Made by a program: the position numbers and the translations under genes. Shown here one piece after another: positions 1 to 62,670 of a stretch of DNA of 64,000 nt. Numbering within the stretch: the stretch's first letter is position 1; each line of letters begins with the position of its first letter. Under the pieces are notes generated by a model. It saw only the letters and a list, made by a program, of their open reading frames with translations, made no database searches and was not told the DNA's origin. Source of the stretch: Escherichia coli (GTDB lineage: Bacteria > Pseudomonadota > Gammaproteobacteria > Enterobacterales > Enterobacteriaceae); NCBI RefSeq assembly GCF_009931435.1, contig NZ_CP043414.1, one strand, 5' to 3'.

Positions 1-3000
1 GCTGCTCCCAAAACGAACCCGTGGCGCACTGGCAGTAGTGTTGAACGCCCAGAGGGGGTCTTTGAATACCTCCATTCCATGCGCCGTGTTTTTACATAAC
101 GTAATGGCAGCAGATGCACTCTCTCCACGTCGACCCGCGCGGCCTGCACGCTGCAAATAATTTGCCGGAGCTGGAGGAACGTTGTTCATTGCCACCAAAC
201 TCATACCACCAATGTCCACCCCCATCTCCATGGTCGTGGAGCAGTTCAGCACATTAACTTTGCCTGACTTAAATTGTTTTTCATTAAACTGGTTCTGCTC
301 AGGCGTTCTCTGCGCAGAGTGTTCCTCCAGACGATACCAGCTATCTTTCAGGGCCAGTCGGTCGCTGCGAGTAGACCATAATCCTTCCTCGCGGGCATGT
401 TGAATCAGCGCATTACTTTCCAGCCACTCCAGACGTTCTTCTCGGGCGATTTCTCCACCACCAGACAAACGCCAGTGACGTACAGGAAGCTCAGGCATTT
501 CAATCAACACTGCTTTTTCAGGTGCAATTTCTTTGCTACCCGGCAAATACGGAGAGTATCCCAGTAACGTGACGTCTAACGCACGTCGAGTATAGGGGCA
601 ACGCCACACTTGCTTTGGACTGTAAAATTCAGCTTGTTGTTTAATATCCAGCTGATAACCCGACTCAAACTGACGTAAGCAGGGTCGAATTGCATCCCAG
701 ACCTCAATCATTAAGTGGTTAACTAACGATTTCCAGTGAGCCTGCTCAGGTTGTATTGCCGGAAAGACTGCAATTAATAGCTTAATGACCCGGTTATAAT
801 GGCGATCGCGTATTTGTGGCCAAAGTTGATCACGTTTCTGCCCTTTGTTTTTTTTATCTGGACCCTGCAGCATTTTTACCGGGAAACGAGCCCCCATCCA
901 GCGAGGGTATTGCTCGTTTTCGTAAAAAACGGCACTGTTTTCACGTATAAAGAAATCAAGAGTAATCTTCAATAAATTACGCCATTCCGCTAATTGCTTA
1001 TCGGGATCGGGTAATAATGTCTTCCAGTCCTGCGGGCAGGTTGTAACTTTATCAATAAATGGATAGTGAATGGCTACCAGACCCAGACTTTCGAGGGTCC
1101 AGGCATTTTTAGGGCGGCGACCAAACTCACTGTATAAACAAAAATCTGCAAACTGTTGTTTAGTAAGATCAAGCCCAGACAATTCTTTAAAACTGCCTCT
1201 CATTCTATCGGCAAGGTCCACACTGCCAACCAGCTGTTCAGACAGTGTTTGCCATGACATGGTTTTCTTCTGCTGATTGCCAGAGTTAGCCTGGAGTATT
1301 TGCATCGCTTCAGCATGATCCGGGCTTAAGGAACTCACCATCGGCTCGATAATTTTAAGTGCCTGAATGTCCGCCGGGCTAAGCTCTTCATTAGCAACCA
1401 TCGCTTTTTTCAGCGCGTCAATAGAGTTTTTTAAAGGAAGGATAGAAAACTGGGCAATAAAACTCTCTAACAATGCGCAGTGTGCCGGGCTGAGCTTTGC
1501 TGATGGCTCATTAATATTGGCCAGCTCCTGGTAGCAAAGAGCTCGCAACGTCGCTTTATCGGCATCCTGCTGTAAGCGGGCAGAAATGCGGGCAGTGCCC
1601 TGACGTGAATCCGTAAAGGTGAGCAGACGTCGACCATTAAACGGTCCTAACTGCTCTTCTCTTGTCTGCGGTAATGGTGAAAACTCCAGCAGAGTAGGAA
1701 TAATTTCATTTAAAAAAAAGGGCGCGCCAAGTCGAAGCGGACGGAATAAAGGATTATTTTTTCGTTGGGTGTCACCACAGCAAACACAAGCAAAGGAATT
1801 ATTACGTCCCTCACCTCGAGATTCCGGTCTTAACAGGTTTATTTCATAGTGCTTTTGCGCTTCACTATCAATTTTCCCCGCCGTCGTTTCTTCCAGTGAA
1901 ATGATATATTTTTCACCATCGCTCGCAATCAGACGATCAAATTGAGAGTTATTGTCTAATTCGTCGTTGTCTTCATCTTCAGAATAAACATCTACATCAA
2001 GAGCAAACTCATCCACTTCGGCAGCGGCGGGTTGCGCTACCAACCAGTTCGTTCCATCACCGCGCATCTCCTCTTTGGCAGACAAATAAGCTGAACCACA
2101 CCCGGAGCAACGTAAAACTTCAAATACCGGCGCACCACAGTCACAATATTGGCGCTGCTCAAACCATACCTGACCAAATGGCCAGTCACTCTGATTTAAT
2201 TCATGTGCTTTATGTGAGCATTGTTTGTTTGAACATGCCCATAGACCCGCCAGTGTTCTGATAAATCCATGCATACGTAATGGCGTAAAAGCCAGTTCAC
2301 CTTCTCGCGATCTTGCCATTAGATCGAGGAGTTGCAGTAGCTCACGGTGATTAATATCTGGCCAGGTTCTTCTGGCAACATTGAGCAACTCACTCAAACG
2401 TACTGCCTGCCGTCCGGGATGAGTTAACGCCTGACGCAATTGCTGGGCCACACGGTAATGACAAAGCTGTTGGTAAAGATCCTGAGGGCTCAGAGATTTA
2501 AGAGAAGTTAAAGATGTGGGGTATTCATGACGAATCAGCGACTCCGATACCCGCGGTATTTGTCGATAACCGCGAACCACTTTGACATCACGTTCTGTAA
2601 CGCCCGCGAGATCAGCGACAAATTTAGCAAGCTCCTTATTACCTTCAGGAGAGTCTTCACCAATAGTGGCAGAGGTCGCGATAATCTGCACAGGTTTATC
2701 TGTGCCGGGTCCAACATTGAAAGCCTGCATAACACGACGTAAAAGCAGCGCTAACTCAGCAGCCTGAGAACCAATATAACTATGGGCTTCATCCAGGACG
2801 ATATACTTTAACATCCCCTGAGACTTTTCGATGATTGGGGCATCTTTACGACGAATCAGCATATATTCCAGCATGGTGGTATTCGTCACCATGATGGAAG
2901 GTGGTGCTTCGTAAATGGCTTCCCGACTCAAAGCTTGTTCAGGTACTTTCAACTGATCTTCCTGAATTTCGTATTTGGTATGCCGGGTTTCGCCATTATA

Positions 3001-3543
3001 TAGCGCGAAGCGTATTTTCCCCTTAAATCCGCGCGTCCATTCGCGAAGCCGCTCCTGTTGACTGTTAATTAATGCATTTAACGGATACAAGAAAATAGCT
3101 TGTGTCCCTGTTAGTGACTGGCGGGTCGATTTTTGCTGACGAATAAGATCTTCCAGAACCGGTACCATAAAGCATTCTGTTTTCCCGGATCCCGTACCGC
3201 TGCTCACTAACAAGGATTTTTTGTCTTCCAGAATTGTTCGCCACGCAGTGAGTTGATGACGAAATGGCACTGGCGCTTTGCTCAATGCATCAACCAGCGG
3301 GCTGGAGATCAGCTTGTCCCGCAAATCCTCCATTGTTTCATCCGCAGGCATCCAGCCGAATGTACTTTCGAATACCGGGTCTGCAAGCAGTGACCCCTCC
3401 TGACCGGGAGGCTGAAAATATTGTGATTCCAGATAATGAGTCAACGACTTGCTCCGCAATGCCAACTGACTTACCACCGACCTCACCGCACGCTGATGAA
3501 GCTGATTTAGAAGTGGCGCATAATGCAGTTGCTGAACGTCCAT
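1..3543 (-). CDS. Large superfamily-2 DEAH helicase, C-terminus runs off the window (at least 1181 codons visible); candidate Druantia DruE-like
   Basis: Minus-strand frame appears uninterrupted from ATG at 3541-3543 to position 1 (checked by hand at several points; not in ORF track because no stop in window). Walker A SSGTGSGKT near 3179-3205, DEAH box VLDEAH at 2782-2799, motif V MEMGVDIGG near 205-231, motif VI QRAGRAGRRGE near 121-153. Cys clusters (FACVCCGD, CSNKQCSH, CDCGAPVFEVLRCSGCG) lie between about 1770 and 2260. Confidence 0.75.
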   Translation of the reverse strand, partial: MDVQQLHYAPLLNQLHQRAVRSVVSQLALRSKSLTHYLESQYFQPPGQEGSLLADPVFESTFGWMPADETMEDLRDKLISSPLVDALSKAPVPFRHQLTAWRTILEDKKSLLVSSGTGSGKTECFMVPVLEDLIRQQKSTRQSLTGTQAIFLYPLNALINSQQERLREWTRGFKGKIRFALYNGETRHTKYEIQEDQLKVPEQALSREAIYEAPPSIMVTNTTMLEYMLIRRKDAPIIEKSQGMLKYIVLDEAHSYIGSQAAELALLLRRVMQAFNVGPGTDKPVQIIATSATIGEDSPEGNKELAKFVADLAGVTERDVKVVRGYRQIPRVSESLIRHEYPTSLTSLKSLSPQDLYQQLCHYRVAQQLRQALTHPGRQAVRLSELLNVARRTWPDINHRELLQLLDLMARSREGELAFTPLRMHGFIRTLAGLWACSNKQCSHKAHELNQSDWPFGQVWFEQRQYCDCGAPVFEVLRCSGCGSAYLSAKEEMRGDGTNWLVAQPAAAEVDEFALDVDVYSEDEDNDELDNNSQFDRLIASDGEKYIISLEETTAGKIDSEAQKHYEINLLRPESRGEGRNNSFACVCCGDTQRKNNPLFRPLRLGAPFFLNEIIPTLLEFSPLPQTREEQLGPFNGRRLLTFTDSRQGTARISARLQQDADKATLRALCYQELANINEPSAKLSPAHCALLESFIAQFSILPLKNSIDALKKAMVANEELSPADIQALKIIEPMVSSLSPDHAEAMQILQANSGNQQKKTMSWQTLSEQLVGSVDLADRMRGSFKELSGLDLTKQQFADFCLYSEFGRRPKNAWTLESLGLVAIHYPFIDKVTTCPQDWKTLLPDPDKQLAEWRNLLKITLDFFIRENSAVFYENEQYPRWMGARFPVKMLQGPDKKNKGQKRDQLWPQIRDRHYNRVIKLLIAVFPAIQPEQAHWKSLVNHLMIEVWDAIRPCLRQFESGYQLDIKQQAEFYSPKQVWRCPYTRRALDVTLLGYSPYLPGSKEIAPEKAVLIEMPELPVRHWRLSGGGEIAREERLEWLESNALIQHAREEGLWSTRSDRLALKDSWYRLEEHSAQRTPEQNQFNEKQFKSGKVNVLNCSTTMEMGVDIGGMSLVAMNNVPPAPANYLQRAGRAGRRGESASAAITLCKNTAHGMEVFKDPLWAFNTTASAPRVRFGSS

Positions 3544-6500
3544 CAATGACATACTCCTGCTTGTTCAAAATAATATTGATAGATTACCCCTAATTGCTGT
3601 GGGGCTTGCTGATAGTGAAATTCAAAAAGCGCAGACAGTTGATGTATCAGGTTATTATCTTTTTGGGTTAACAGCGCTGCGACTAACATCAAATTAAAAC
3701 GTTTTTCAAGCCGTGAGTGATATTTATCTTCAATCCAAAGCTTATTAAAAACAGATTTTAACTCTGGAGTAATAGCACTAGACCAAAGTTCTTTAGGGAA
3801 GATACTGATACGCCCAAAGCTGTCGGGGTTCCTTAATAGCATCTGTTTAGCTTCATTAAACTGCTCACGACTAACAGTTGGCAATACATCACAACCGGTT
3901 GGTAGGCTCTCACTATATGTAAGTAACATATTCGCAATGGGAGCCAGCCGACGATCGATATGTGCACGATGGTTCATAAAAGCAATAAAGGGTTGCAATA
4001 TATGTAATGCTAATGTTTTATCGTTAATCTGTTTTTCCAGATAAGTCCAACATTTTTGGAAAACATCTTTCCAGATTGAAACGGGAATCCATCCCCATGA
4101 AAAGGGTAATTCTTCCTGTATATCATAAATCGTATCGCTATCACCAGAAAGACATGATGATATTAACAATTGAACAACCACGCGGTAATTACTCGAAATA
4201 CCTCTGAACAAGTCCAGATCCAGCAAGGATAAGCCATTATTCATTTTGTACTTCTTAATATACTCTGTTAATAAACAGCAATAATTTTGCAATGGGTTGT
4301 TATCTATTTCAAAAATTAGCTCATTAAAATTTTTTTTGCGCTGTTCTGGGTCTGCTTCGCATAGAGCATTTAGTAATAAATCATTTGTCTGCAATACAGG
4401 TAGCATCCATTTAATTACTGGTGCAATGCGAGCTGTACCATCAAGTTTTCCCACAATTAACCATGGACTATCCTGAACATTCAGAGCTGAAAGATCATAA
4501 GCAAATTCATCTTTTTTTAGCAATGATTTGTGTAAGCCAGGATCCTTAAGAGAAATAGCATCAACAACCAGTTCGTCTATTCTATTTGCAGGAAAAACAA
4601 CAGAATTTTTTATATCAACCAGCAACCCTTGATCGTGTTCAATAAAACTACCATCGTAGCGTTTAATATTGAGTGTTGCTTTATCCTTTCCAAATCTGTC
4701 AGAGTAAAAATCAACACATAATGTACTATTGCTGTTCCATGCACATGCCAGCATAGCATTTAGCAAATTATAGTTCTCATAAAGTGAAATTTGTTGTAAT
4801 TTGTCATTGCGTCCTGATAAAAGAGGAAGGTCGGCATGTAAATAACGGAATTTTTCAGCTACTGGATTTTCATCCAATAACTCGATATTAAGATATCCTC
4901 TTCCAGCACATGATATGGTTAATAACTCAGCATCTATTCCATGCAAATGTGCTATAGATGCCACACCATCAAAATGAACAGAACCATCATTAGTTACAAA
5001 TCGGCCACCGCTAACCGGCTTAGGTAATAATAGTTTAAGATTAGAACCATCTTTCCAGGAGACCCGTAAATCAACGGTATTTTCCAGCATCTGCGATGAA
5101 TTATAATAAATAGCACACTCGTTTTGTGAATAATCGGACTTAAGTGTTACTTTTTCATTGTTTGAATATTTATCAATTCTAGTATCCGTTATACCAGAAA
5201 GCATAATAATGCCTTGCTGAGCACTCTCAGGTATAATATTAATATCGAAGTCTGCTGGTAAAACTACAACTTTACCGCTAAATAAAACCTCATCATTAAC
5301 TATTCGCCGGACTTCTATCTGTCCTTTTGGCATTTCTGATGCGACAGAATACCAGGCATTGTTACCTGAACGAATGGAACGCCAAAAAAGTTCTTTCTCC
5401 GGTACAATGCCATATTGCAGATCCTTTTTCCAACCGATCTTCGGCCAGGCTCGATGGACAGGATAATCCGATTTAACCAGTTCAACTTCTGTCGATTTAA
5501 TATAATATTCAATCGCAGAATCATAAAGTTGCTGGGTGCGAATTGTACAAACAGCACCATCATGTAAAACAACGCTAAATACTCCACTTATTTTAGTTAA
5601 GCTGCGTTCACTGTTTTTCAGCAACCTTGGGATATCAAACTCACCTTCTCCACTAATATCTAAATGGCTATTTTTCGGTAGCGAAATAAACAGAGCATTT
5701 AGCCTGGAACTCACAGACCCCATACCGACAAGTTTTAGCTGCGATTCACTCTCATTCATCGCTTCAAAAACCCAGGGGAGTTCTTCAGTAAGTTCATAAC
5801 CGCCTTTTGGAATTGTGTGGCCTAACAGAATTGGACCTTCATGAAGCGACAACGAGATTTCGGCCATTGCATCTGCACCAGAGAGCTTTTGCATCGCAAT
5901 AGGTAATAACTCGACCCGCCAATCTTGCTGCTCATAACGGCTTAGCATTGCCAACCTTGCCCCGCCATTTCTCCATTTTCCTGAAATGATGAGTCGGGTC
6001 TGCTCCGGCTGAATATGGCATTCAAACAAAGAGGTTAACTGTTCTGTACGCATTGTGGCCGGGAATCGGAACCGGGCATCACAATACCAACTGTCATCAA
6101 CATCGACCCAGATTCTTTCAACCTGAAGACTACTTGCACTGCGTATTTCAGAAGATTGAGAAAGTAATCGCCTTACAATCTCTGCAGCATTCGCTTCGGG
6201 GAGAACGAGTGGAAGTTGAAGATGCCAGTCTGGAGAGAGCTTACGTAATGCAGAAACGGGATCACTGCTTTGAGGTGGATGCTCACTAAGTAATCGGCAG
6301 AGAGTCTCGCAGAATTCACCGGCTATTTCATAGACCAGTTCGTTTTGCATTGTGACAGGAATCGTATCGCCTAATTCTTGTGCAATTTTAGCGGCAGGAT
6401 ATTGAGATGCTTGCCCACGAAGCGCCTGATATATCCTTCTGAAATAGGTAATCAAATAACCGCTCTCATTTTCAATCATGCGGATAGGTAAACCACCTTC

Positions 6501-6902
6501 ACAAGCCAGTGTATGCAGATAACCCGAAGCTTGCCCCAGGTTTCTTATCTTTCTTTTCCAGTAGCGAATGCCATCATTAACCAGCTTCTGTCGATGAACA
6601 TACGGAACTTTCCAGTCAATAGAATCTAAAATTGTGTCCCATTTAGGGTGTCCGACCGTATGAGTCCGGCGGATAAACTCTGCGGCATATATGCTAAATA
6701 GAACATCGCTATAGGAAATGAATATCGTTCTTGGATAACTACGAGGGGCATATGTACGCAGTAGTTCTGCCAAACTTTCGTACTCTGTATCAGTACAACG
6801 GTAAGCATATAACGCCCGTCCATCAGCTCCGGATAATGAACGGCGACTAAAAAACATGTTAAGCCATTGCAAAAGTGGGTTAACTGGAGTTTTCACAAGC
6901 AA
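3543..6902 (-). CDS. Hypothetical 1119-aa protein, no recognisable motifs; upstream partner of the helicase (candidate DruH-like)
   Basis: Single long ORF in track; AT-rich; its TGA stop overlaps the helicase ATG (ATGA at 3541-3545), implying translational coupling. Confidence 0.6.
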   Translation of the reverse strand: MLVKTPVNPLLQWLNMFFSRRSLSGADGRALYAYRCTDTEYESLAELLRTYAPRSYPRTIFISYSDVLFSIYAAEFIRRTHTVGHPKWDTILDSIDWKVPYVHRQKLVNDGIRYWKRKIRNLGQASGYLHTLACEGGLPIRMIENESGYLITYFRRIYQALRGQASQYPAAKIAQELGDTIPVTMQNELVYEIAGEFCETLCRLLSEHPPQSSDPVSALRKLSPDWHLQLPLVLPEANAAEIVRRLLSQSSEIRSASSLQVERIWVDVDDSWYCDARFRFPATMRTEQLTSLFECHIQPEQTRLIISGKWRNGGARLAMLSRYEQQDWRVELLPIAMQKLSGADAMAEISLSLHEGPILLGHTIPKGGYELTEELPWVFEAMNESESQLKLVGMGSVSSRLNALFISLPKNSHLDISGEGEFDIPRLLKNSERSLTKISGVFSVVLHDGAVCTIRTQQLYDSAIEYYIKSTEVELVKSDYPVHRAWPKIGWKKDLQYGIVPEKELFWRSIRSGNNAWYSVASEMPKGQIEVRRIVNDEVLFSGKVVVLPADFDINIIPESAQQGIIMLSGITDTRIDKYSNNEKVTLKSDYSQNECAIYYNSSQMLENTVDLRVSWKDGSNLKLLLPKPVSGGRFVTNDGSVHFDGVASIAHLHGIDAELLTISCAGRGYLNIELLDENPVAEKFRYLHADLPLLSGRNDKLQQISLYENYNLLNAMLACAWNSNSTLCVDFYSDRFGKDKATLNIKRYDGSFIEHDQGLLVDIKNSVVFPANRIDELVVDAISLKDPGLHKSLLKKDEFAYDLSALNVQDSPWLIVGKLDGTARIAPVIKWMLPVLQTNDLLLNALCEADPEQRKKNFNELIFEIDNNPLQNYCCLLTEYIKKYKMNNGLSLLDLDLFRGISSNYRVVVQLLISSCLSGDSDTIYDIQEELPFSWGWIPVSIWKDVFQKCWTYLEKQINDKTLALHILQPFIAFMNHRAHIDRRLAPIANMLLTYSESLPTGCDVLPTVSREQFNEAKQMLLRNPDSFGRISIFPKELWSSAITPELKSVFNKLWIEDKYHSRLEKRFNLMLVAALLTQKDNNLIHQLSALFEFHYQQAPQQLGVIYQYYFEQAGVCH

Positions 6903-7113
6903 CCTGCCTTCCTTTGATACAATTCGTAACAGGTTACTATCATCATAAAAAAGCTCAACCCGATGAACTCGCTAAAAATGAGACAAATCATTTATATCTC
7001 GAAAAAACTTGTTACAATCATGAGCGCTACACCGAACTTAACCATATAAATTATGTGCGTTTTGTTTATTTTTTAAACAATTACAACTATCCATTATTTA
7101 CACAGGTATCAAA

Positions 7114-8766
7114 ATGTTAGCGCAGCTTTTTGAGCAGTTGTTTCAATCGATAGACTCTACACTGATCACCAATATTTTCATCTGGGCTGTTATATTCGTA
7201 TTTTTATCAGCGTGGTGGTGTGACAAAAAAAATATACATAGTAAGTTTAGAGAATATGCTCCAACCTTAATGGGGGCATTAGGTATTCTGGGTACTTTCA
7301 TTGGTATTATTATTGGGTTACTCAATTTTAATACTGAAAGTATTGATACCAGCATCCCCGTATTATTAGGCGGCCTAAAAACAGCATTCATTACAAGCAT
7401 TGTAGGTATGTTTTTTGCCATTTTATTTAATGGAATGGATGCTTTCTTTTTTGCCAATAAACGAAGTGCGTTAGCAGAAAATAACCCTGAATCTGTTACA
7501 CCTGAACATATCTATCATGAATTAAAAGAGCAGAACCAGACTCTGACTAAATTAGTCTTGGGTATTAACGGTGATAGTGAAGGTTCTCTTATTGCTCAAA
7601 TAAAATTACTACGTACTGAGATTAGCGATTCCTCGCAGGCACAATTAGCTAATCACACTCATTTCAGTAATAAGCTTTGGGAACAACTTGAACAATTTGC
7701 AGATCTAATGGCAAAAGGTGCTACAGAACAAATTATTGATGCTTTACGACAAGTCATTATTGATTTTAATGAAAATTTAACTGAACAGTTTGGTGAAAAC
7801 TTTAAAGCACTTGATGCCTCTGTAAAAAAACTTGTTGAGTGGCAGGAAAATTATAAAACGCAAGTTGAGCTGATGTCAGAACAATATCAACAAAGTGTCG
7901 AGTCTCTGGTTGAAACAAAAACTGCGGTTGCCGGGATTTGGGAAGAATGTAAAGAAATTCCTCTGGCTATGTCTGAACTGCGTGAAGTGCTTCAGGTGAA
8001 CCAACATCAAATCAGCGAACTCTCCCGCCATTTAGAAACCTTTGTCGCTATCCGCGATAAAGCTACAACCGTATTACCTGAAATACAGAACAAAATGGCT
8101 GAAGTGGGTGAACTGCTGAAATCCGGAGCTGCAAATGTTAGTGCATCTCTTGAGCAAACCAGCCAGCAAATACTTCTTAATGCAGATTCAATGCGCGTGG
8201 CCCTGGATGAAGGTACCGAAGGATTCAGACAATCGGTTACCCAAACACAACAAGCATTTGCCTCGATGGCACATGATGTCAGCAATTCCTCCGAAACTCT
8301 AACCAGCACGTTAGGTGAAACAATTACTGAAATGAAACAAAGTGGTGAAGAATTCCTGAAGTCACTAGAGTCGCACTCGAAAGAATTGCATAGAAATATG
8401 GAACAAAATACGACTAATGTAATTGATATGTTCAGTAAGACTGGTGAAAAGATTAACCATCAACTATCCAGTAATGCCGATAATATGTTTGATTCAATCC
8501 AGACATCATTTGATAAGGCAAGTGCAGGGCTGACTTCTCAAGTCAGAGAATCAATTGAAAAATTTGCTCTATCCATCAACGAGCAGTTACATGCTTTTGA
8601 GCAAGCAACTGAACGTGAGATGAACCGTGAAATGCAATCATTAGGTAATGCTCTGCTTTCAATCAGCAAAGGTTTTGTCGGTAACTATGAAAAACTTATT
8701 AAAGATTACCAAATAATTATGGGACAGTTACAAGCATTAATTTCTGCTAATAAACATCGAGGGTAA
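7114..8766 (+). CDS. zorA: MotA/ExbB/TolQ-like membrane protein with long coiled-coil tail; ZorA-like (Zorya)
   Basis: Three N-terminal hydrophobic helices (LITNIFIWAVIFVFLSAWW, LMGALGILGTFIGIIIGLL, IPVLLGGLKTAFITSIVGMFFAILF) followed by about 440 aa of Q/E/L-rich heptad-like sequence; first gene of a three-gene operon. Confidence 0.65.
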   Translation: MLAQLFEQLFQSIDSTLITNIFIWAVIFVFLSAWWCDKKNIHSKFREYAPTLMGALGILGTFIGIIIGLLNFNTESIDTSIPVLLGGLKTAFITSIVGMFFAILFNGMDAFFFANKRSALAENNPESVTPEHIYHELKEQNQTLTKLVLGINGDSEGSLIAQIKLLRTEISDSSQAQLANHTHFSNKLWEQLEQFADLMAKGATEQIIDALRQVIIDFNENLTEQFGENFKALDASVKKLVEWQENYKTQVELMSEQYQQSVESLVETKTAVAGIWEECKEIPLAMSELREVLQVNQHQISELSRHLETFVAIRDKATTVLPEIQNKMAEVGELLKSGAANVSASLEQTSQQILLNADSMRVALDEGTEGFRQSVTQTQQAFASMAHDVSNSSETLTSTLGETITEMKQSGEEFLKSLESHSKELHRNMEQNTTNVIDMFSKTGEKINHQLSSNADNMFDSIQTSFDKASAGLTSQVRESIEKFALSINEQLHAFEQATEREMNREMQSLGNALLSISKGFVGNYEKLIKDYQIIMGQLQALISANKHRG

Positions 8767-8772
8767 TCGATC

Positions 8773-9480
8773 ATGGATAAGATTATAGGGAAACAATTAC
8801 CTAAAAAAGATCAAGATAATGAACACTGGGTATCCATGTCAGACCTAATGGCAGGGCTGATGATGGTTTTTATGTTCATATCTATTGCTTATATGCACTA
8901 CGTACGTATTGAAAAAGAAAAAATTAAAGAAGTTGCCGTAGCCTACGAGAATGCTCAGTTACAGCTTTATAATGCTCTGGATATTGAGTTTGCAAAGGAT
9001 TTACAAGACTGGGATGCAGAGATCGATAAACAGACTCTGGAGGTTCGATTTAAATCACCGGATGTTTTATTTGGCTTAGGAAGCACAGAGCTAAAACCAA
9101 AGTTTAAACTCATTCTTGACGACTTCTTTCCTCGCTACCTAAAAGTTCTAGATAATTATCAGGACCATATTACTGAAGTCCGCATTGAAGGTCACACAAG
9201 TACTGACTGGACAGGAACAACGAATCCTGATATTGCTTATTTTAATAATATGGCACTATCACAAGGTCGTACACGTGCAGTATTACAATACGTTTATGAC
9301 ATAAAAAATATCGCGACACACCAACAATGGGTTAAAAGTAAATTTGCCGCAGTAGGTTATTCATCTGCACATCCCATTCTTGATAAAACCGGCAAGGAGG
9401 ATCCTAATCGCTCTCGTCGTGTCACCTTCAAAGTTGTAACAAATGCCGAATTGCAGATTAGAAAGATTATTCAGGAGTAA
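8773..9480 (+). CDS. zorB: MotB/OmpA-like peptidoglycan-anchoring protein; ZorB-like
   Basis: N-terminal TM segment (LMAGLMMVFMFISIAYM) and C-terminal OmpA/MotB-like region (NMALSQGRTRAVLQYV, NRSRRVTF); starts 6 nt after zorA stop. Confidence 0.65.
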   Translation: MDKIIGKQLPKKDQDNEHWVSMSDLMAGLMMVFMFISIAYMHYVRIEKEKIKEVAVAYENAQLQLYNALDIEFAKDLQDWDAEIDKQTLEVRFKSPDVLFGLGSTELKPKFKLILDDFFPRYLKVLDNYQDHITEVRIEGHTSTDWTGTTNPDIAYFNNMALSQGRTRAVLQYVYDIKNIATHQQWVKSKFAAVGYSSAHPILDKTGKEDPNRSRRVTFKVVTNAELQIRKIIQE

Positions 9481-9483
9481 GAG

Positions 9484-10587
9484 ATGAAATTATCTATCGA
9501 CATTTCAGAACTTATTCAATTAGGGAAGAAAATGTTACCAGAAGGAGTCGATTTTTTTCTGGATGAATCCCCTATTGACTTTGATCCTATAGATATTGAG
9601 TTATCCACGGGTAAAGAAGTTAGTATCGAAGATCTTGACCCTGGTAGCGGGCTTATCTCTTATCATGGCCGCCAGGTTCTTTTATATATTCGGGACCATT
9701 CAGGGCGTTATGATGCGGCTATCGTAGATGGCGAAAAAGGAAAACGTTTTCATATTGCCTGGTGCAGAACTCTTGATGAAATGCGCCATAAAAATCGATT
9801 TGAAAGGTATCATGCAACTAACCGCATAGATGGTTTATTCGAAATTGATGATGGTTCAGGTCGGAGCCAGGATGTTGATTTACGGGTATGTATGAATTGC
9901 CTCGAACGACTTAATTATAAAGGAAGTATTGATAAACAACGAAAAAGAGAGATTTTTAAATCATTCTCATTAAATGAGTTTTTTTCAGATTATAGTACCT
10001 GTTTTCGTCATATGCCTAAGGGTATCTATGACAAAACAAATAGTGGGTATGTCGAAAACTGGAAAGATATATCTAAATCAATACGAGAAAAGGCAAATTA
10101 TGTTTGTAATGATTGTGGCGTGAATTTATCAACCGCCAAAAACTTGTGCCATGTCCATCATAAAAATGGCATCAAATATGATAATCACCATGAAAACCTT
10201 CTTGTTCTGTGCAAGGATTGCCATCGAAAACAGCCCCTCCACGAAGGTATATTCGTTACCCAAGCTGAGATGGCTATCATTCAACGTTTACGTTCCCAAC
10301 AAGGGTTATTAAAAGCAGAATCCTGGAATGAAATATATGACCTGACTGATCCATCAGTGCATGGTGATATTAATATGATGCAACATAAAGGCTTTCAACC
10401 TCCTGTTCCTGGGTTAGATCTTCAAAACTCAGAACATGAAATTATTGCAACCGTAGAAGCTGCATGGCCAGGCCTTAAAATTGCAGTTAACCTTACTCCC
10501 GCCGAAGTCGAAGGATGGAGAATATATACCGTGGGTGAGCTGGTTAAAGAAATACAAACAGGAGCCTTTACGTCAGCAACGTTGTAA
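9484..10587 (+). CDS. zorE: HNH endonuclease-domain protein; ZorE-like (Zorya type II effector)
   Basis: C-terminal HNH signature CNDCGVNLSTAKNLCHVHHKNG...NHHENLLVLCKDCH; starts 3 nt after zorB stop. Confidence 0.6.
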   Translation: MKLSIDISELIQLGKKMLPEGVDFFLDESPIDFDPIDIELSTGKEVSIEDLDPGSGLISYHGRQVLLYIRDHSGRYDAAIVDGEKGKRFHIAWCRTLDEMRHKNRFERYHATNRIDGLFEIDDGSGRSQDVDLRVCMNCLERLNYKGSIDKQRKREIFKSFSLNEFFSDYSTCFRHMPKGIYDKTNSGYVENWKDISKSIREKANYVCNDCGVNLSTAKNLCHVHHKNGIKYDNHHENLLVLCKDCHRKQPLHEGIFVTQAEMAIIQRLRSQQGLLKAESWNEIYDLTDPSVHGDINMMQHKGFQPPVPGLDLQNSEHEIIATVEAAWPGLKIAVNLTPAEVEGWRIYTVGELVKEIQTGAFTSATL

Positions 10588-10796: not shown

Positions 10797-11406
10797 ATGA
10801 ATAAAGCAATAACGGTGCTTGCTATAATGATGGCTTCATTTTCCGTAAATGCGTATGTATTACCGGAAACGCCTGTGCCATTTAAAAGTGGTACCGGAGC
10901 AATTGATAACAACACTGTCTACATTGGTTTAGGTAGCGCAGGTACGGCATGGTACAAGCTGGAGAAACAGACCAAAGATAAAAAAATGGACAGCGTTAGC
11001 TGCATTTCCTGGTGGACCGAGAGATCAAGCAACTTCTGCATTTATTGATGGCAATCTGTATGTGTTTGACGGCATTGGCAAAAACAGTGAGGGCTTGACT
11101 CAGGTATTTAATGACGTTCACAAATACAACCTCAAAACCAATAGCTGGGTTAAATTGATGTCGCACGCGCCGATGGGCATGGCGGGTCATGTGACATTTG
11201 TACACAACGGCAAGGCTTATGTTACTGGCGGTGTTAACCAGAATATCTTCAATGGCTATTTTGAAGATCTTAACGAAGCTGGAAAAGATTCAGCGTACCG
11301 GTCACCGGAGAACTGGATGACGGTACTGCGAAGCAGTCATTTCAGTCGGGGGATGATTGTAGACAAATTTGTTGACGCTATTTTGCGGTTTTGGCGTGAA
11401 GGGTGA
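10797..11406 (+). pseudogene. nanM: N-acetylneuraminate epimerase (nanM/yjhT) N-terminal fragment, frameshifted and truncated
   Basis: ORFs 10797-11048 and 11062-11406 together carry the NanM signal peptide and first Kelch-like repeats (MNKAITVLAIMMASFSVNAYVLPETPVPFKSGTGAIDNNTVYIGLGSAGTAWYKL; FDGIGKNSEGLTQVFNDVHKYNLKTNSWVKLMSHAPMGMAGHVTFVHNGKAYVTGGVNQNIFNGYFEDLNEAGKD) but are split by a frameshift and end far short of the full-length protein. Confidence 0.6.
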
Positions 11407-11413
11407 GCGTTCA

Positions 11414-12064
11414 TTAATTTGATTTATTTGCATCCATCAACGCTTTTAACTGCTCCGGCGAAAACGGTGGTTTGCGTCGGTGCAACATCGCATGGCAATT
11501 AGGGCACACAGGAAGCAAATCATTAACTGGATCCAGCTGGTAATTCTCTTTAATGGCTGAAAGCGGCACCAGGTGATGCACATGGATAAAGCCTTCAGCG
11601 ATATCACCATAGATCTTCACCAGATCAACGCCGCATACGTTGCACTGGCATCCATGATGTTCGACCGCTTTATCTCGGGCCTTTTTATCGCGTTCATAGC
11701 GGTTTACTGTCACCTTTATCGCCGCACCTTCAACGTATGTCTCCTGCGACGGCAACTCATCCGGGAACAGAACGTCGGCTATGGGAGCCGCAGCGGCTTT
11801 ATCCTGATGAATATGAAATCCCTGCTCTATGAGTAGTTTGACGCATTTAGATTTTATTCCGCCGGTGAAATCCGCAGGGGTAAATTGCGTCCCCGTCATC
11901 AATGTCGCTGCGATGCCAGCAATCGCCTTCGAGGGGTAACGTCGGCCATGATATTCAATCTCATACAACCGCGCAGGCTGGAACTGATGAGTTTCTCCCG
12001 CATCCCATAAATGGATAGCTTCGATGATATACCGCCGCGGAAGATGATCAGGGAGTTTATTCAT
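11414..12064 (-). CDS. HNH endonuclease with about 140-aa N-terminal domain of unknown function
   Basis: C-terminal HHGCQCNVCG...HVHHLVPLS...NDLLPVCPNCHAMLH (zinc-finger HNH); N-terminal region has no motif I recognise. Confidence 0.7.
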   Translation of the reverse strand: MNKLPDHLPRRYIIEAIHLWDAGETHQFQPARLYEIEYHGRRYPSKAIAGIAATLMTGTQFTPADFTGGIKSKCVKLLIEQGFHIHQDKAAAAPIADVLFPDELPSQETYVEGAAIKVTVNRYERDKKARDKAVEHHGCQCNVCGVDLVKIYGDIAEGFIHVHHLVPLSAIKENYQLDPVNDLLPVCPNCHAMLHRRKPPFSPEQLKALMDANKSN

Positions 12065-12143
12065 GGAGAATGTCCTTATACGTTCTCAGAACAGGCAGCA
12101 AAAAAACAAATGAGATCAAGGTAATATATCTTCACTTGCAGGC

Positions 12144-13073
12144 TTGAACAGCAGAAAATTTGCGAGCATGATCGCAATTATTTCACTGCCAGGGATATCA
12201 ATGGCTTCCAGTAAATCGCTACAGCAGGCAATTGCCAATATAAAAATCTGGCACAAGGGTGAACAGCGCGCGCCGCATAAGCCATTGTTATTGCTATACG
12301 TATTAGCGGGATACCTGAATGGACATCCGCGCCTTTTCGATTATGGCTCGGAAATCTACGAACCTCTGCACAGTTTACTGGAACGTTTTGGGCCACAGCG
12401 TTCACAGTACCGACCTGATATGCCGTTCTGGCGATTACAAGGCGACGGATTCTGGCAATTACACAATGCCGAACTTTGCTCAACAGCAGGGAGTAGCCGA
12501 CAACCGCCAGTGAAGGAACTGACCGAACACCGCGTTGCAGGCGGTTTCGATGAACAGCACTATGCCCTGGTAATCGGCAATAAAAAACTCATCAATACCC
12601 TGGCGCAACAGATACTCGAAGCGCACTTCACCGAGAGCATTCAGGAAGAAATTGCTGACGAGCTGGGTTTTGATCTCCAGCAAATCCGTAAACAGCGCGA
12701 CCCGTTATTTCGCAAACTTGTATTGCGCGCATATAACTACCAGTGCGCGATATGTGGCTTTAATATGCGCCACGATGACACCACCGTCGCACTGGAAGCA
12801 GCGCATATAAAATGGAAACAGCACGGCGGTCCTTGTGAAATTCCTAATGGCCTGGCGCTTTGTGCAATACACCATAAAGCCTTTGATAAAGGATCGATTG
12901 GCCTGGATGAAAATATGCGGGTACTGGTCTCGGATGCGGTAAACGGCGGAGGGATCGTTGAGAAACTATTCTGGGATTTTGACGGGAAAACTATTGCGTT
13001 ACCACAGGTGCGTAAAAATTACCCTTTTGAGGGGTTTGTGGAGTGGCATCGAAAAGAGGTTTTTAGGGGGTGA
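12144..13073 (+). CDS. HNH endonuclease with about 190-aa N-terminal domain of unknown function (start may be a downstream Met, e.g. 12201)
   Basis: HNH signature CAICGF...AAHIKWKQHGGP...NGLALCAIHHKAFDKG; divergent from the 216-aa HNH gene across a 79-bp spacer. Confidence 0.7.
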   Translation: MNSRKFASMIAIISLPGISMASSKSLQQAIANIKIWHKGEQRAPHKPLLLLYVLAGYLNGHPRLFDYGSEIYEPLHSLLERFGPQRSQYRPDMPFWRLQGDGFWQLHNAELCSTAGSSRQPPVKELTEHRVAGGFDEQHYALVIGNKKLINTLAQQILEAHFTESIQEEIADELGFDLQQIRKQRDPLFRKLVLRAYNYQCAICGFNMRHDDTTVALEAAHIKWKQHGGPCEIPNGLALCAIHHKAFDKGSIGLDENMRVLVSDAVNGGGIVEKLFWDFDGKTIALPQVRKNYPFEGFVEWHRKEVFRG

Positions 13074-13695: not shown

Positions 13696-15744
13696 CTAAT
13701 CATTTCCCTTACGAATATATGGGCCAAAAGCCCAAGAATCATAATAAGGGTGATGGACTAATTTTTCATTAAATCGAACACTATAAGTTAATTTTTTTAT
13801 ATTTTTACGTACAGCATTAATACTGGGCAAAGAGGAAAGATAATCTATAAACTTATCGATAGTGATTTTCCCTTCGCAACACTCAAACCCATCAATGATA
13901 TTTTTCGCCATTTTTCCATTTTCATTTGTTTGATATATCACTCCAGGTATTCGTTGAAAAAAACTAGATAATGCATATTTGTCCGCTACATATGTATCAT
14001 CCACATGATATTTCCCACCGAGCATAGTTGTAGTAACAATAAGCTTATACACACCTTTGGGTTGCCATGTTGATGGTAGTTCGAATTCTTTAATGATCAC
14101 ATCAAGATGATTAAGATAATGTTCAGAAATTCGATTTATTTGTTGAAAATAAGAACGCATAAATTTATTATTATGATCATGTATTAATGAGCTATCTCCA
14201 ACGATGTTACACACTTGCTGATAGTACTTACCATAATATATTGGTTGACCATTTGATTTTAGTTCTGTAAAAATCAAACAATCATCCAGGAGAATCACGC
14301 AATCGCACTGATAATTAGCATGAGCATCAATTGGAGAAGCTTTAATCCCCGCATCACGAACTTGTTTTATAAATTGTTGCTCATGAAATCGCCCTTTACT
14401 TGCTTGAGAAATTTTTTTGGAACCAAATAATGACATTAGAGAGCGAGTCACTGAGCTATTTGCTATTAATGCAGGCATTAAGCATAAACCGTCCATACAG
14501 GGAATAAATGGGCAATCATTAAGATCATGTGATTTTGAATTGAAGGTAAAATAATCTATCAGTTTTTTTGCTGCATCTGCTGCAATCCCCTTACGTTGAA
14601 AGAATGATAACCAACTCTCACGGCTTTTTATGACCAGCCAGCGATCCAACTGTAGGGGTATAGGTTTTGTCGATGAAAATCTTTTGCTCATTTCTTCTTT
14701 AGATAACTCGACTAAACATTGATAAGCGTGCACCCAATTAAATAATGATATATTCCCATATTCTTCATGAAGGTCATCAGGAGACATATTTTCCAACTCG
14801 CTTAAATGAAATGAGCTAAAAACGCCATCAGAATTTAAGTAAGATGGCATATGATCCTTTACCCAACTATTTAGATGAAAATGTTTGTTACTAAATTCAT
14901 GAACTTCGCTATATAGATGTGACGCTCTCATCATTAGTCTATTTCTTGCAATCTCATAATCTCGGTATAAACAAAAACTATCAACCTCAAGAGAGTAAAT
15001 GTTATTATCCAATTTTGTAAATACTGCACTACTTAGTCTGAAAAAGTCTCTTACTCTGCTTAATGAGTCAAAAACATTCCACTCATTAAGGTACCCTCCC
15101 ATTGAAAGCAAGGTTTGTTTATTCACACAAGAAGTTAGTTTCAATGGCCCATGAGTCCGTAAATAAGAAAATATTCTTCCGGTGTAATTGGCTACCTCAT
15201 CAAATGCCCTATCGATAACTCGAAAATATTCGATATCAGGTTCAGCATGAATATTAATATTTTCAGAAACGATAAATAATGGAAAAATCCTCTTCATTTT
15301 TTTAGGATCATTGACCACAACCAAGGATGATAATGATGATAAAAACATCTCACAAAACATGATGAGATTAAGTATTAATGCATGTGATTTTTTTGTATTT
15401 TTACGCCAAATACCAGCACATTTTGCAGCCCCAAAGAAAGAATTATTTATATCATGCATAATTTTACATTGACTCTCGAACTCAGAGATTAGTTCAATGT
15501 TATCAGGAAATGAGTTTACTAGCTCATTAATACATTTTTTGAATGTATTGTTATACTCAACTTCAGTCTGAACTGAAAATCTATTATAATAGATGGAAGA
15601 TATTCTCAGCACATCCAAGGCGATATCTATACTAATATCATCTCTTTTTATGTACTCACAAAAAAAAGAACAAAACTGTTTCGGGTCGTTAGCAAGATTA
15701 CTAATTCTAGTGGTATCATAAACTTTTTCCATTTTTCCATACAT
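13696..15744 (-). CDS. Hypothetical 682-aa protein, very AT-rich, no confident domain assignment
   Basis: Single long ORF flanked by more than 600 bp of AT-rich non-coding DNA on each side; possible PD-(D/E)xK-like motif CDCVILLDDCLIFTELK in the C-terminal third (weak). Confidence 0.6.
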   Translation of the reverse strand: MYGKMEKVYDTTRISNLANDPKQFCSFFCEYIKRDDISIDIALDVLRISSIYYNRFSVQTEVEYNNTFKKCINELVNSFPDNIELISEFESQCKIMHDINNSFFGAAKCAGIWRKNTKKSHALILNLIMFCEMFLSSLSSLVVVNDPKKMKRIFPLFIVSENINIHAEPDIEYFRVIDRAFDEVANYTGRIFSYLRTHGPLKLTSCVNKQTLLSMGGYLNEWNVFDSLSRVRDFFRLSSAVFTKLDNNIYSLEVDSFCLYRDYEIARNRLMMRASHLYSEVHEFSNKHFHLNSWVKDHMPSYLNSDGVFSSFHLSELENMSPDDLHEEYGNISLFNWVHAYQCLVELSKEEMSKRFSSTKPIPLQLDRWLVIKSRESWLSFFQRKGIAADAAKKLIDYFTFNSKSHDLNDCPFIPCMDGLCLMPALIANSSVTRSLMSLFGSKKISQASKGRFHEQQFIKQVRDAGIKASPIDAHANYQCDCVILLDDCLIFTELKSNGQPIYYGKYYQQVCNIVGDSSLIHDHNNKFMRSYFQQINRISEHYLNHLDVIIKEFELPSTWQPKGVYKLIVTTTMLGGKYHVDDTYVADKYALSSFFQRIPGVIYQTNENGKMAKNIIDGFECCEGKITIDKFIDYLSSLPSINAVRKNIKKLTYSVRFNEKLVHHPYYDSWAFGPYIRKGND

Positions 15745-16421: not shown

Positions 16422-16506
16422 TGGTGCCGAAGGCCGGACTCGAACCGGCACGTATTTCTACGGTTGATTTTGAATCAACTGCGTCTACCGATTTCGCCAC
16501 TTCGGC
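16422..16506 (-). tRNA. leuX: tRNA-Leu (anticodon CAA), leuX
   Basis: Minus-strand sequence GCCGAAGTGGCGAAATCGGTAGACGCAGTTGATTCAAAATCAACCGTAGAAATACGTGCCGGTTCGAGTCCGGCCTTCGGCACCA, with T-loop GGTTCGAGTCC and 3' CCA; matches recalled leuX. Confidence 0.9.
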
Positions 16507-26959: not shown

Positions 26960-28474
<1,515 letters not shown>

Positions 28475-45583: not shown

Positions 45584-45850
45584 AAGGAGTCCCTCCGCAC
45601 TGTCTGAAACAGTGCAGAAATGTCTTCAGGCGTGGCGAAGCCTTACCTGAAGGTAATAAAGCTGAGCTGGGACGTTAAAACGTCACGGCCTTACGCATCC
45701 GGTAACGCCGTGAAAAGACGGGCTTACCGGAAAAGTTTTAATCTCCGTCGAGGGAGAGGCGTGGGATCAGGTTCCATATAACCTCCGGTAAGTGAAAAAA
45801 GCGCCGCAAATAATAAGGAGAATCCAATAATATTCGTGGCATTTATGGCG
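45584..45850 (-). promoter_or_regulatory. mgtA 5' leader (Mg2+/proline-sensing riboswitch-attenuator region)
   Basis: Long untranslated leader between the presumed promoter and mgtA start, containing mgtL; assignment by established knowledge of the mgtA leader, boundaries approximate. Confidence 0.55.
45724..45777 (-). CDS. mgtL: mgtA leader peptide
   Basis: 17-aa proline-rich peptide [17 protein letters not shown] (C-terminal end of track ORF 45724-45930) upstream of mgtA. Confidence 0.8.
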
Positions 45851-56304: not shown

Positions 56305-56420
56305 GGTTTGCCGGATGCGGTGCACCTGTAGGCCTGATAAGACGCATCAAGCGTCGCATCAGGCACTATGCTCAAATGCCGGATGCGGCGTGAACGCCTT
56401 ATCCGGCCTACACACACTAT
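56305..56420. repeat. REP/BIME cluster between yjgA and mpl
   Basis: Three REP-like units (gccggatgcggtgcacctgtaggcctgataagacgc..., gcgtcgcatcaggc, gccggatgcggcgtgaacgccttatccggcctaca). Confidence 0.6.
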
Positions 56421-62557: not shown

Positions 62558-62670
62558 CGTGCGCCAGATAAGACACAACAGCGTCGCATCAGGCATCTCG
62601 CACAACCGCCGGATGCGGCGTGAATGCCTTATCCGGCGGCCCACAAGTCGGCATCAGGCATTGATGCCCC
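62558..62670. repeat. REP/BIME cluster between ytfR and ytfQ
   Basis: gcgtcgcatcaggc and gccggatgcggcgtgaatgccttatccggc units. Confidence 0.6.

What the first reader, a model, noticed from the sequence alone, without database searches (positions are those of the whole stretch)
1..3543. Helicase core split by a roughly 850-aa insert containing Cys-rich zinc-ribbon-like clusters
Motif I (about 3179-3205) and the DEAH box (2782-2799) lie within the first 250 codons, but motifs V and VI (MEMGVDIGG, QRAGRAGRRGE) do not appear until about codons 1105-1140, at window positions 121-231. The intervening region carries FACVCCGD, CSNKQCSH and CDCGAPVFEVLRCSGCG. This is not the usual contiguous RecA1-RecA2 arrangement and suggests an inserted DNA- or partner-binding module.
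Basis: seen in the sequence. Interest (0 to 1): 0.6.

Follow-up and report, generated by a model that had tools for sequence, protein, structure and literature searches.

The report
DruE phage-defence helicase, split core
This is the front half of DruE, the large DNA helicase of the E. coli Druantia type III anti-phage system. Its motor is interrupted by zinc-binding, DNA-gripping and dimerising domains, an arrangement predicted in 2025 and shown by cryo-EM in 2026.

Summary
The frame runs off the window edge; the full protein is 2104 aa.

It is DruE of Druantia type III (PADLOC DruE3, 1360 bits). It follows druH with a 1-nt overlap, in the E. coli leuX defence island next to Zorya II. The residues compared match the cryo-EM entry PDB 9TU7 almost exactly.

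The "850-aa insert" is really two insertions.
- Block A (aa ~327-637): a winged-helix domain plus a double zinc-binding domain.
- Block B (aa ~665-1063): a duplex-binding "Cap" domain with a nested dimerisation bundle.

Eight cysteines (437, 442, 467, 469, 479, 482, 586, 589) are invariant in 122 of 122 aligned sequences.

Published structures show these domains clamp the incoming duplex, carry the strand-separating wedge and an autoinhibitory lock loop, and dimerise the enzyme. Verdict: already known, low interest.

The parts
1..3543 (-). druE, 5' part: codons 1-1181 of 2104. The gene continues beyond the left edge of the window.
   Evidence: One open frame with no stop. PADLOC DruE3, 1360 bits. 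PDB 9tu7_Y, 2704 bits over aa 1-1181. The 99.5%-identical E. coli locus carries a 2104-aa CDS.
3280..3543 (-). N-terminal region (aa 1-88), before RecA1. The boundary is approximate.
   Evidence: It precedes the Pfam DEAD match. The NTR of YprA-family helicases is described.
2566..3279 (-). RecA1 (aa ~89-326), with motif I GTGSGKT (3178-3198), motif II DEAH (2782-2793) and motif III SAT (2665-2673).
   Evidence: Pfam DEAD at aa 95-295, E 6e-24. Motif coordinates. Aligns to MrfA RecA1. Mean identity to the query across 121 homologues is 0.53.
2254..2565 (-). Insertion block A, part 1: a small helical winged-helix-like domain (aa ~327-430). The papers call it WH, FHD or 'BrxA-like'.
1633..2253 (-). 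Insertion block A, part 2: the double zinc-binding beta domain (aa ~431-637; dZBD / ZBM_L). Eight invariant Cys: 437, 442, 467, 469, 479, 482 (window 2098-2235) and 586, 589 (1777-1788). Acidic 'lock' loop at aa ~505-526 (1966-2031).
   Evidence: All eight Cys are 122/122 invariant; C588 is only 14/122. The AF2 model is beta-rich at aa 435-602 with a disordered stretch at 515-531. Two Zn motifs reported. Deleting the lock loop abolishes defence. N596 and R601 contact the duplex.
1552..1632 (-). First strand and helix of RecA2, carrying motif IV (aa 638-664, RRLLTFTDSRQGTARISARLQQDADKA). This is an island of helicase core between the two insertions.
   Evidence: When aa 665-1063 are spliced out, the Pfam Helicase_C match extends from model positions 39-110 to 16-110 and rises from 47.8 to 56.7 bits, starting at R638. 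F643, D645 and R647 are 122/122 invariant, and segment identity is 0.63 against 0.26-0.30 in the flanking domains. R647 and R652 contact the DNA backbone.
355..1551 (-). Insertion block B, inside RecA2: the duplex-binding 'Cap' domain (aa ~665-1063; DBD / Cap / 'MarR-like'). It carries the strand-separating wedge F887 (window 883-885).
1267..1512 (-). Four-helix dimerisation subdomain nested in block B (aa 678-759; DD / PD).
   Evidence: It is the least conserved segment: identity 0.07, occupancy 0.52. pLDDT is low, about 51-62. Deleting it makes DruE monomeric and abolishes defence.
31..354 (-). Remainder of RecA2 (aa ~1064-1171), with motif V MEMGVDIGG (205-231) and motif VI QRAGRAGRRGE (121-153).
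   Evidence: Pfam Helicase_C at aa 1069-1140, E 2e-12. Segment identity 0.57. [quoted passage not shown]
3543..6902 (-). druH, the partner gene. Its stop overlaps the druE start by 1 nt (TGATG).
   Evidence: PADLOC DruH3, 2551 bits, full length. Junction sequence with AGGAG upstream of the ATG. RefSeq annotates the equivalent gene as 'STY4851/ECs_5259 family protein'.

Best explanation
The ORF is the N-terminal 1181 residues of DruE, the signature protein of the two-gene Druantia type III-A anti-phage system (druH-druE) in the E. coli leuX defence island.

DruE is a YprA/MrfA-like superfamily-2 DNA helicase that moves 3'-to-5'. Its two RecA-like motor domains are interrupted by lineage-specific accessory domains, in this order:
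1. RecA1, with motifs I-III.
2. A winged-helix domain.
3. A double zinc-binding beta domain with eight invariant Cys, enough for two Zn(Cys)4 sites.
4. The first strand and helix of RecA2, with motif IV.
5. A ~400-aa duplex-binding Cap domain with a nested four-helix dimerisation bundle.
6. The rest of RecA2, with motifs V and VI.

Shown by published cryo-EM and mutagenesis on a near-identical protein:
- The zinc domain and the Cap domain form the entry channel that grips and over-twists the incoming duplex.
- A Cap loop (F887) acts as the strand-separating wedge.
- An acidic loop of the zinc domain (aa ~505-526) acts as a lock that occupies the DNA path in the resting state.
- The nested bundle dimerises DruE.
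- The lock and the dimerisation bundle are each required for defence.

Inferred: the inserts turn a generic MrfA-type translocase into a junction-specific unwinding machine. It loads on 3' ssDNA tails or forks of phage replication or recombination intermediates, and DruH acts as sensor or DNA processor.

The C-terminal half lies outside the window. It holds the extended WH, OB/Zn, MZB (DUF1998) and two PLD-like domains.
For: Continuity and motifs: one frame with no stop; Pfam DEAD and Helicase_C at the two ends.

Identity:
- PADLOC DruE3 1360 bits, and DruH3 2551 bits for the adjacent gene.
- PDB 9tu7_Y at 2704 bits over aa 1-1181, identical in the stretches printed apart from one position near aa 676. 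9TU7 is the E. coli DruE monomer.
- 99.5% DNA identity to E. coli chromosomes; 537 of 5426 complete genomes carry the locus. Island context.

Two insertions rather than one:
- Splicing out aa 665-1063 extends the Helicase_C match to model positions 16-110, starting at R638.
- The 638-664 segment is as conserved as the core (0.63 against 0.26-0.30), with F643, D645 and R647 invariant in 122/122.
- Published statements: 'INS and Stalk embedded within RecA2' and 'inserted into the RecA2 fold'.

Zinc sites: 8 Cys are 122/122 invariant and 21/21 or 17/21 in an independent set. Two Zn motifs lie in dZBD/ZBM_L.

Function of the inserts:
- Duplex clamp and F887 wedge.
- Entry-site contacts N596, R601, K812, R886, K890, K900, R914.
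- Lock-loop deletion lowers unwinding by 40% and abolishes defence.
- DD deletion gives a monomer and abolishes defence.

My own models agree: five helices plus a beta domain with a disordered 515-531 loop, winged-helix hits, and a MarR-like subfold inside the Cap.

The MZB domain is present in the off-window half.
Against: - Domain boundaries are approximate. They come from conservation, Pfam, AF2 secondary structure and residue numbers quoted in the papers. I could not read the 9TU7 coordinates.
- I did not establish which four Cys bind which zinc.
- In the text I searched, no paper reports mutating the dZBD cysteines.
- The mechanistic papers are 2026 preprints and disagree on points outside the window. 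These include whether the PLD domains are an active nuclease or dispensable, and whether DruH is an exonuclease, an ssDNA binder or a protein sensor.
- A direct phmmer alignment of my spliced construct to MrfA did not place TFTDSR on MrfA's motif IV. The assignment rests on the Pfam profile, conservation and DNA contacts.
Confidence: 0.96

Rival explanations
1. The N-terminal and C-terminal helicase motifs belong to two different proteins, or to a pseudogene, because of a frameshift or stop.
For: None found. The only weak point is that the ORF is cut by the window edge.
Against: - 1181 codons with no stop, while the other frames hold 53 and 94 stops.
- Collinear single-stretch matches over aa 1-1180 to dozens of ~2050-2100-aa homologues.
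- The same reading frame is a 2104-aa CDS in RefSeq genomes.
- The purified protein has a calculated monomer mass of 237 kDa and elutes at about 438 kDa, as a dimer.
Confidence: 0.005
2. The Cys-rich insert is a selfish element inside a helicase gene: an intein, a homing endonuclease or a transposon remnant. It would be spliced out or be functionally irrelevant.
For: Zinc-ribbon motifs and insertion into a conserved ATPase domain are typical of some inteins and homing endonucleases (general knowledge). Pfam finds nothing in aa 300-1068.
Against: - No intein or endonuclease domain hit.
- The insert sits at the same position, with invariant residues, in all 121 full-length homologues at 37-55% identity.
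- It is present in the mature protein and ordered in the cryo-EM maps.
- Deleting the lock loop or the DD abolishes defence.
Confidence: 0.01
3. The protein is a DEAH-box RNA helicase that regulates flagellar motility, which is the RefSeq product name for some copies. The insert would then be an RNA- or regulator-binding module.
Against: - Deleting druE in EDL933 had no effect on fliC transcript or swimming in a later study.
- DruE unwinds DNA carrying a 3' overhang or a fork and binds DNA in several cryo-EM structures.
- The gene forms a defence operon with druH and protects against phages.
Confidence: 0.03
4. The cysteine clusters are a compositional accident and bind no metal.
For: No metal analysis was run here. 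C588 in FACVCCGD is not conserved.
Against: - Eight Cys are invariant in 122/122 sequences, while the surrounding domain averages 30% identity.
- Two groups model two zinc-binding motifs in this domain from cryo-EM maps.
Confidence: 0.005

Closest known systems
E. coli Druantia type III-A DruE (cryo-EM entries PDB 9TU7-9TUC; bioRxiv 10.64898/2026.05.13.724758, 10.64898/2026.05.12.722862 and 10.64898/2026.05.12.724681)
   Same: Essentially the same protein: 2704 bits over aa 1-1181, identical in the printed stretches. Same residue numbering for Walker A T117-T122, DEAH 251-254, DD 678-759 and R1135/R1138. Same partner gene druH and the same neighbouring Zorya II.
   Different: The window holds only the first 1181 of 2104 residues. 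There are a few substitutions between strains, for example 4 of 1181 against strain 24A16CRGN010 and one visible difference near aa 676 against 9TU7.
Pseudomonas aeruginosa type III DruE (bioRxiv 10.64898/2026.05.13.724313)
   Same: Same architecture. [quoted passage not shown]
   Different: An orthologue, not the same protein. It is reported as an autoinhibited dimer with an active PLD nuclease (D1740), whereas the PLD domains of the E. coli protein were found dispensable. A second solved DruE-like chain, 9wae (1970 aa), matches only the core motifs. I did not determine its source organism.
[quoted passage not shown] 2025, PMC12458937)
   Same: Per that paper, they share the post-RecA1 BrxA-like helical domain, the beta-barrel zinc-binding module inserted at the start of RecA2, and a MarR-like domain also inserted into RecA2. 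The paper treats this as a shared derived character of the lineage.
   Different: They belong to different systems with different partner genes. The paper describes different C-terminal nucleases and extra coiled-coil or HTH elements. I did not compare their sequences here.
Bacillus subtilis MrfA/YprA (PDB 6ZNP, 6ZNS)
   Same: Same SF2 subfamily. E 6e-16, improving to 5.6e-18 once the inserts are spliced out, at which point the match becomes a single collinear stretch. Same motif order, and the same MZB/DUF1998 domain downstream.
   Different: MrfA has contiguous RecA1-RecA2, with about 200 aa from DExH to motif VI against 880 aa here. It has no WH, dZBD, Cap or DD domains, and it works in mitomycin-C damage repair, not phage defence.
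DISARM DrmA and Dpd DpdJ helicases
   Same: Related YprA-like defence helicases. PADLOC gives DpdJ at 7.6e-24 and DrmA at 1.7e-11 on the core motifs.
   Different: The matches cover only RecA1 or the last part of RecA2. Per Bell 2025 they carry different insertions, namely ZBMs in RecA1, and in DISARM the OB-CON-DUF1998 module is a separate protein.

Membership tests
Druantia type III DruE | Full-length similarity to DruE type III profiles | tested here: met
   PADLOC PDLC00037 DruE3: 1360 bits, aa 6-1180 on profile positions 4-1141 of 2055. Type I, II and IV models score far lower, at 251-368 bits.
Druantia type III DruE | Adjacent, co-oriented druH gene (two-gene system) | tested here: met
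   Window 3543-6902 (-) scores 2551 bits on DruH3 over the full length. Its stop overlaps the druE ATG by 1 nt.
Druantia type III DruE | Near-identity to an experimentally validated DruE | tested here: met
   PDB 9tu7_Y at 2704 bits over aa 1-1181. 9TU7 is the E. coli DruE monomer from the defence-validated system.
Druantia type III DruE | C-terminal MZB/DUF1998 zinc domain | tested here: met
   The domain is not in the window because the gene is cut at codon 1181. In the 99.5%-identical locus L001 the remaining 923 aa carry Pfam MZB PF09369, E 5.7e-12, at aa 1612-1691.
Druantia type III DruE | Protection against phage infection | not testable with these tools
   Shown for the near-identical E. 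coli system in the literature, not for this strain.
Superfamily 2 helicase (YprA/MrfA-like) | Motifs I, II, III, IV, V and VI in order, on two RecA-like domains | tested here: met
   Motif positions. Pfam DEAD and Helicase_C. Motif IV recovered by the spliced Pfam test and by invariance. Similarity to MrfA 6znp at E 6e-16.
Superfamily 2 helicase (YprA/MrfA-like) | Contiguous RecA1-RecA2 core, as in MrfA | tested here: not met
   880 aa from DEAH to motif VI, against about 200 in MrfA. [quoted passage not shown] It does not exclude family membership.
Intein or homing-endonuclease insertion | Intein splicing blocks or an endonuclease domain; patchy presence among homologues | tested here: not met
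   No such Pfam hit in aa 300-1068. The insert is present in all 121 full-length homologues and in the mature protein.
Zinc-binding module (two Zn(Cys)4 sites) | Conserved sets of four Cys ligands, and bound zinc | tested here: inconclusive
   Eight Cys are invariant in 122/122, which is consistent with two sites. Two cryo-EM studies report two Zn motifs. I could not read the ligand pairing or the metal content with these tools.

The most novel reading that the evidence does not exclude
The two Zn(Cys)4 sites of the inserted zinc domain may be more than structural staples. They could act as a redox- or metal-sensitive switch that controls the adjacent acidic 'lock' loop (aa 505-526), and so control DruE autoinhibition. 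In the text I searched, none of the four structural studies reports mutating these eight cysteines; only the MZB cysteines C1681-C1690 were mutated. My data neither exclude nor support this reading.
Probability: 0.04. Interest if true: 0.4.

Novelty: already known. Interest (0 to 1): 0.1.

Why it matters
The finding shows that a raw-sequence reader can spot a real and unusual helicase architecture: a motor domain with large functional modules inserted into it. That architecture underlies how Druantia III recognises and unwinds phage DNA junctions.

For discovery it adds little. The domain layout was predicted in September 2025 and solved by cryo-EM by several groups in May 2026, on a protein essentially identical to this one.

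Three small additions come from this work:
- An explicit mapping of motif IV as a 27-residue core island between two insertions.
- The demonstration that exactly eight, not nine, cysteines are invariant across 122 sequences.
- A reconciliation of two published descriptions of the Cap domain. It holds a MarR-like winged-helix subfold of about 70 residues, but the domain as a whole has no homologue.

Tried and rejected
- **Frameshift or two proteins:** rejected.
- **Intein or mobile insertion:** rejected.
- **Direct phmmer alignment of a spliced mini-core to MrfA:** it gave one collinear stretch and a better E-value, but it did not place TFTDSR on MrfA's motif IV. The Pfam profile on a slightly different splice settled the point.
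- **NCBIfam:** no DruE-specific model. All 22 hits fall far below their cut-offs.
- **Foldseek of the WH+dZBD model against the PDB:** nothing below E 1. That library stops at 2026-04-08 and lacks 9TU7, so it could not confirm the model against the real structure.
- **First homologue search:** it returned mostly truncated E. coli fragments. The representative search supplied the diverse full-length set.
- **Pfam version:** the tool's Pfam release lacks PF27116, which the precomputed annotations list on homologues. From which partial proteins carry it, I infer that it covers the zinc domain (it needs residues beyond about aa 565-610). I could not retrieve its name.
- **Rfam:** no RNA family hit in window 1-7100.
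Full report
**Observation**

The reverse strand of window 1-3543 translates as 1181 codons with no stop, starting at ATG 3543-3541. The other two frames of that strand hold 53 and 94 stops. The frame runs off the left edge of the window.

- GTGSGKT, aa 116-122
- DEAH, aa 251-254
- SAT, aa 291-293
- MEMGVDIGG, aa 1105-1113
- QRAGRAGRRGE, aa 1131-1141
- CSNKQCSH, aa 437-444
- CDCG...CSGCG, aa 467-483
- FACVCCGD, aa 584-591

Pfam places DEAD at aa 95-295 (E 6e-24). Helicase_C appears only at aa 1069-1140 (E 2e-12) and covers just model positions 39-110. No Pfam-A family in the tool's release matches aa 300-1068.

**Identity**

PADLOC scores the protein 1360 bits on DruE type III. The upstream gene (window 6902-3543, minus strand) scores 2551 bits on DruH type III. 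The druH stop and the druE start overlap by one base (TGATG), with AGGAG upstream.

The DNA is 99.5% identical to E. coli chromosomes, and 537 of 5426 complete genomes carry the locus. In strain 24A16CRGN010 the gene is 2104 codons long and differs from the window copy at 4 of the first 1181 residues.

In that strain the gene order is ARMADA-like genes, druE, druH, zorA2-zorB2-zorE, two HNH-type restriction genes, an unannotated 682-aa ORF, then tRNA-Leu. The window itself confirms Zorya II and tRNA-Leu(CAA) at 16422-16506.

The PDB holds a 2108-residue chain, 9tu7_Y, that matches aa 1-1181 at 2704 bits and is identical in the printed stretches apart from one position near aa 676. 9TU7 is the E. 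coli DruE monomer. The off-window C-terminal half of the near-identical gene carries the MrfA zinc-binding domain (MZB/DUF1998) at aa 1612-1691.

**Anatomy: two insertions, not one**

The Helicase_C match lacks the first third of the model. I therefore looked for the missing RecA2 strand. The segment RRLLTFTDSRQGTARISARLQQDADKA (aa 638-664) looks like SF2 motif IV.

Three results support that reading:
- Joining aa 598-664 directly to aa 1064-1181 extends the Helicase_C match to model positions 16-110, starting at R638. The score rises from 47.8 to 56.7 bits.
- I aligned 121 full-length cluster representatives (at least 1900 aa, 37-55% identical). The mean fraction identical to the query is 0.53 in RecA1, 0.63 in aa 638-664 and 0.57 in aa 1064-1171. 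It is only 0.26-0.30 in the intervening domains and 0.07 in aa 678-759. F643, D645 and R647 are invariant in 122/122.
- R647 and R652 contact the phosphate backbone at the duplex-to-ssDNA transition in a DNA-bound structure.

The layout is therefore:

| Segment | Residues (approx.) |
|---|---|
| RecA1 | 89-326 |
| Block A: winged-helix domain | 327-430 |
| Block A: zinc domain | 431-637 |
| RecA2 strand and helix with motif IV | 638-664 |
| Block B: Cap domain (nested bundle at 678-759) | 665-1063 |
| Rest of RecA2 | 1064-1171 |

Spacing is conserved across the family:

| Interval | Median (aa) | Range (aa) |
|---|---|---|
| DEAH to motif IV | 387 | 359-409 |
| Motif IV to motif VI | 450 | 431-488 |
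| DEAH to motif VI | 839 | 790-895 |

**Cysteines**

C437, C442, C467, C469, C479, C482, C586 and C589 are invariant in 122/122 sequences. C588, the middle Cys of FACVCCGD, is kept in only 14/122. An independent 21-sequence set gives the same picture. Eight invariant Cys fit two Zn(Cys)4 sites. I could not determine which Cys pair with which.

**My own structure models**

An AF2 model of aa 327-640 (pLDDT 80.3) shows five helices at aa 346-411, a beta-rich domain at aa 435-602 and a disordered acidic loop at aa 515-531.
- Foldseek against a PDB copy that predates 9TU7 finds nothing below E 1.

An AF2 model of aa 662-1068 (pLDDT 85.5, pTM 0.80) has low confidence over the nested bundle.

This reconciles two published statements. 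The domain contains a MarR-like subfold (Bell 2025), but as a whole it has no known homologue.

**What the literature already shows**

Bell et al. [quoted passage not shown]

Four preprints from May 2026 give cryo-EM structures.
[quoted passage not shown] A dZBD loop (505-523) is a 'lock'; deleting it raises ssDNA affinity, cuts unwinding by 40% and abolishes defence. Deleting the DD (678-759) gives a monomer that unwinds faster but does not protect.
- **The second E. coli study** names FHD, ZBM_L (two zinc motifs) and Cap with a PD subdomain (680-758). It shows Cap and ZBM_L compressing and over-twisting the duplex, with F887 as the wedge.
- **The third E. coli study** lists the entry-site contacts N596, R601, K812, R886, K890, K900 and R914.

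**Mechanism**

- **Shown (literature):** DruE is a 3'-to-5' DNA helicase that needs a 3' tail or a fork. The helicase motifs, the MZB cysteines, the lock loop and dimerisation are each required for defence.
- **Inferred:** the inserted domains convert an MrfA-type ssDNA translocase into a junction-engaging unwinding machine with built-in autoinhibition.
- **Unsettled, and outside this window:** whether the C-terminal PLD domains are an active nuclease or dispensable, and what DruH does. It has been called an exonuclease, an ssDNA binder and a sensor of late phage proteins.

**Rivals**

- A frameshift or two genes is excluded.
- An intein or mobile insertion is excluded by family-wide conservation and by the unspliced mature protein.

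**Verdict**

The feature is already described in detail for essentially this exact protein. Novelty: already known. Interest: low.

Noticed in passing
window 7114-10587 (+): A complete Zorya type II operon lies divergent from druH: zorA2 7114-8766, zorB2 8773-9480, zorE 9484-10587. PADLOC scores are 999, 347 and 586 bits. A 211-bp intergenic region (6903-7113) holds promoter-like sites on both strands. [quoted passage not shown]
   Followed up: partly
window 13696-15744 (-): A 682-aa ORF lies between the restriction genes and tRNA-Leu, and RefSeq annotates it as hypothetical. It has no match in PADLOC or NCBIfam and no Pfam match below E 0.4. It is an uncharacterised gene in a defence island and a possible defence candidate.
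   Followed up: partly
window 11414-13073: Two divergent HNH-type genes. The first is a 216-aa HNH endonuclease (11414-12064, -) with only a weak type IV restriction hit. The second (12144-13073, +) scores 436 bits on NCBIfam NF045808, phosphorothioated DNA-binding restriction endonuclease.
   Followed up: partly
window 16422-16506 (-): tRNA-Leu(CAA), i.e. leuX, marks the island boundary. To its right the window appears to be core E. coli chromosome (ahr, idnK/D/O/T/R, yjgR, lptFG, pepA, holC, valS and onwards). This is judged from a closely related strain's annotation and from matching ORF coordinates.
   Followed up: partly
[not shown]
   Followed up: yes
homologues of window aa ~430-610: Precomputed annotations list a newer Pfam family, PF27116, on homologues. 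The tool's Pfam release does not contain it. Only partial proteins that extend past about aa 565-610 carry it, so it probably covers the double zinc-binding domain. Its name could not be retrieved.
   Followed up: partly
window 45677-45792 (-), 27521-27715 (-), 56331-56408 (-), 62562-62638 (-): Rfam gathering-score hits elsewhere in the window: the Mg riboswitch (mgtA leader), Ysr276 antisense RNA, and two naRNA4 copies. All are expected in E. coli core sequence.
   Followed up: no
window 10797-11292: In the related strain this stretch is annotated as a frameshifted fragment of an N-acetylneuraminate epimerase gene, a likely remnant between Zorya II and the HNH genes. I did not verify it in the window sequence.
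   Followed up: no
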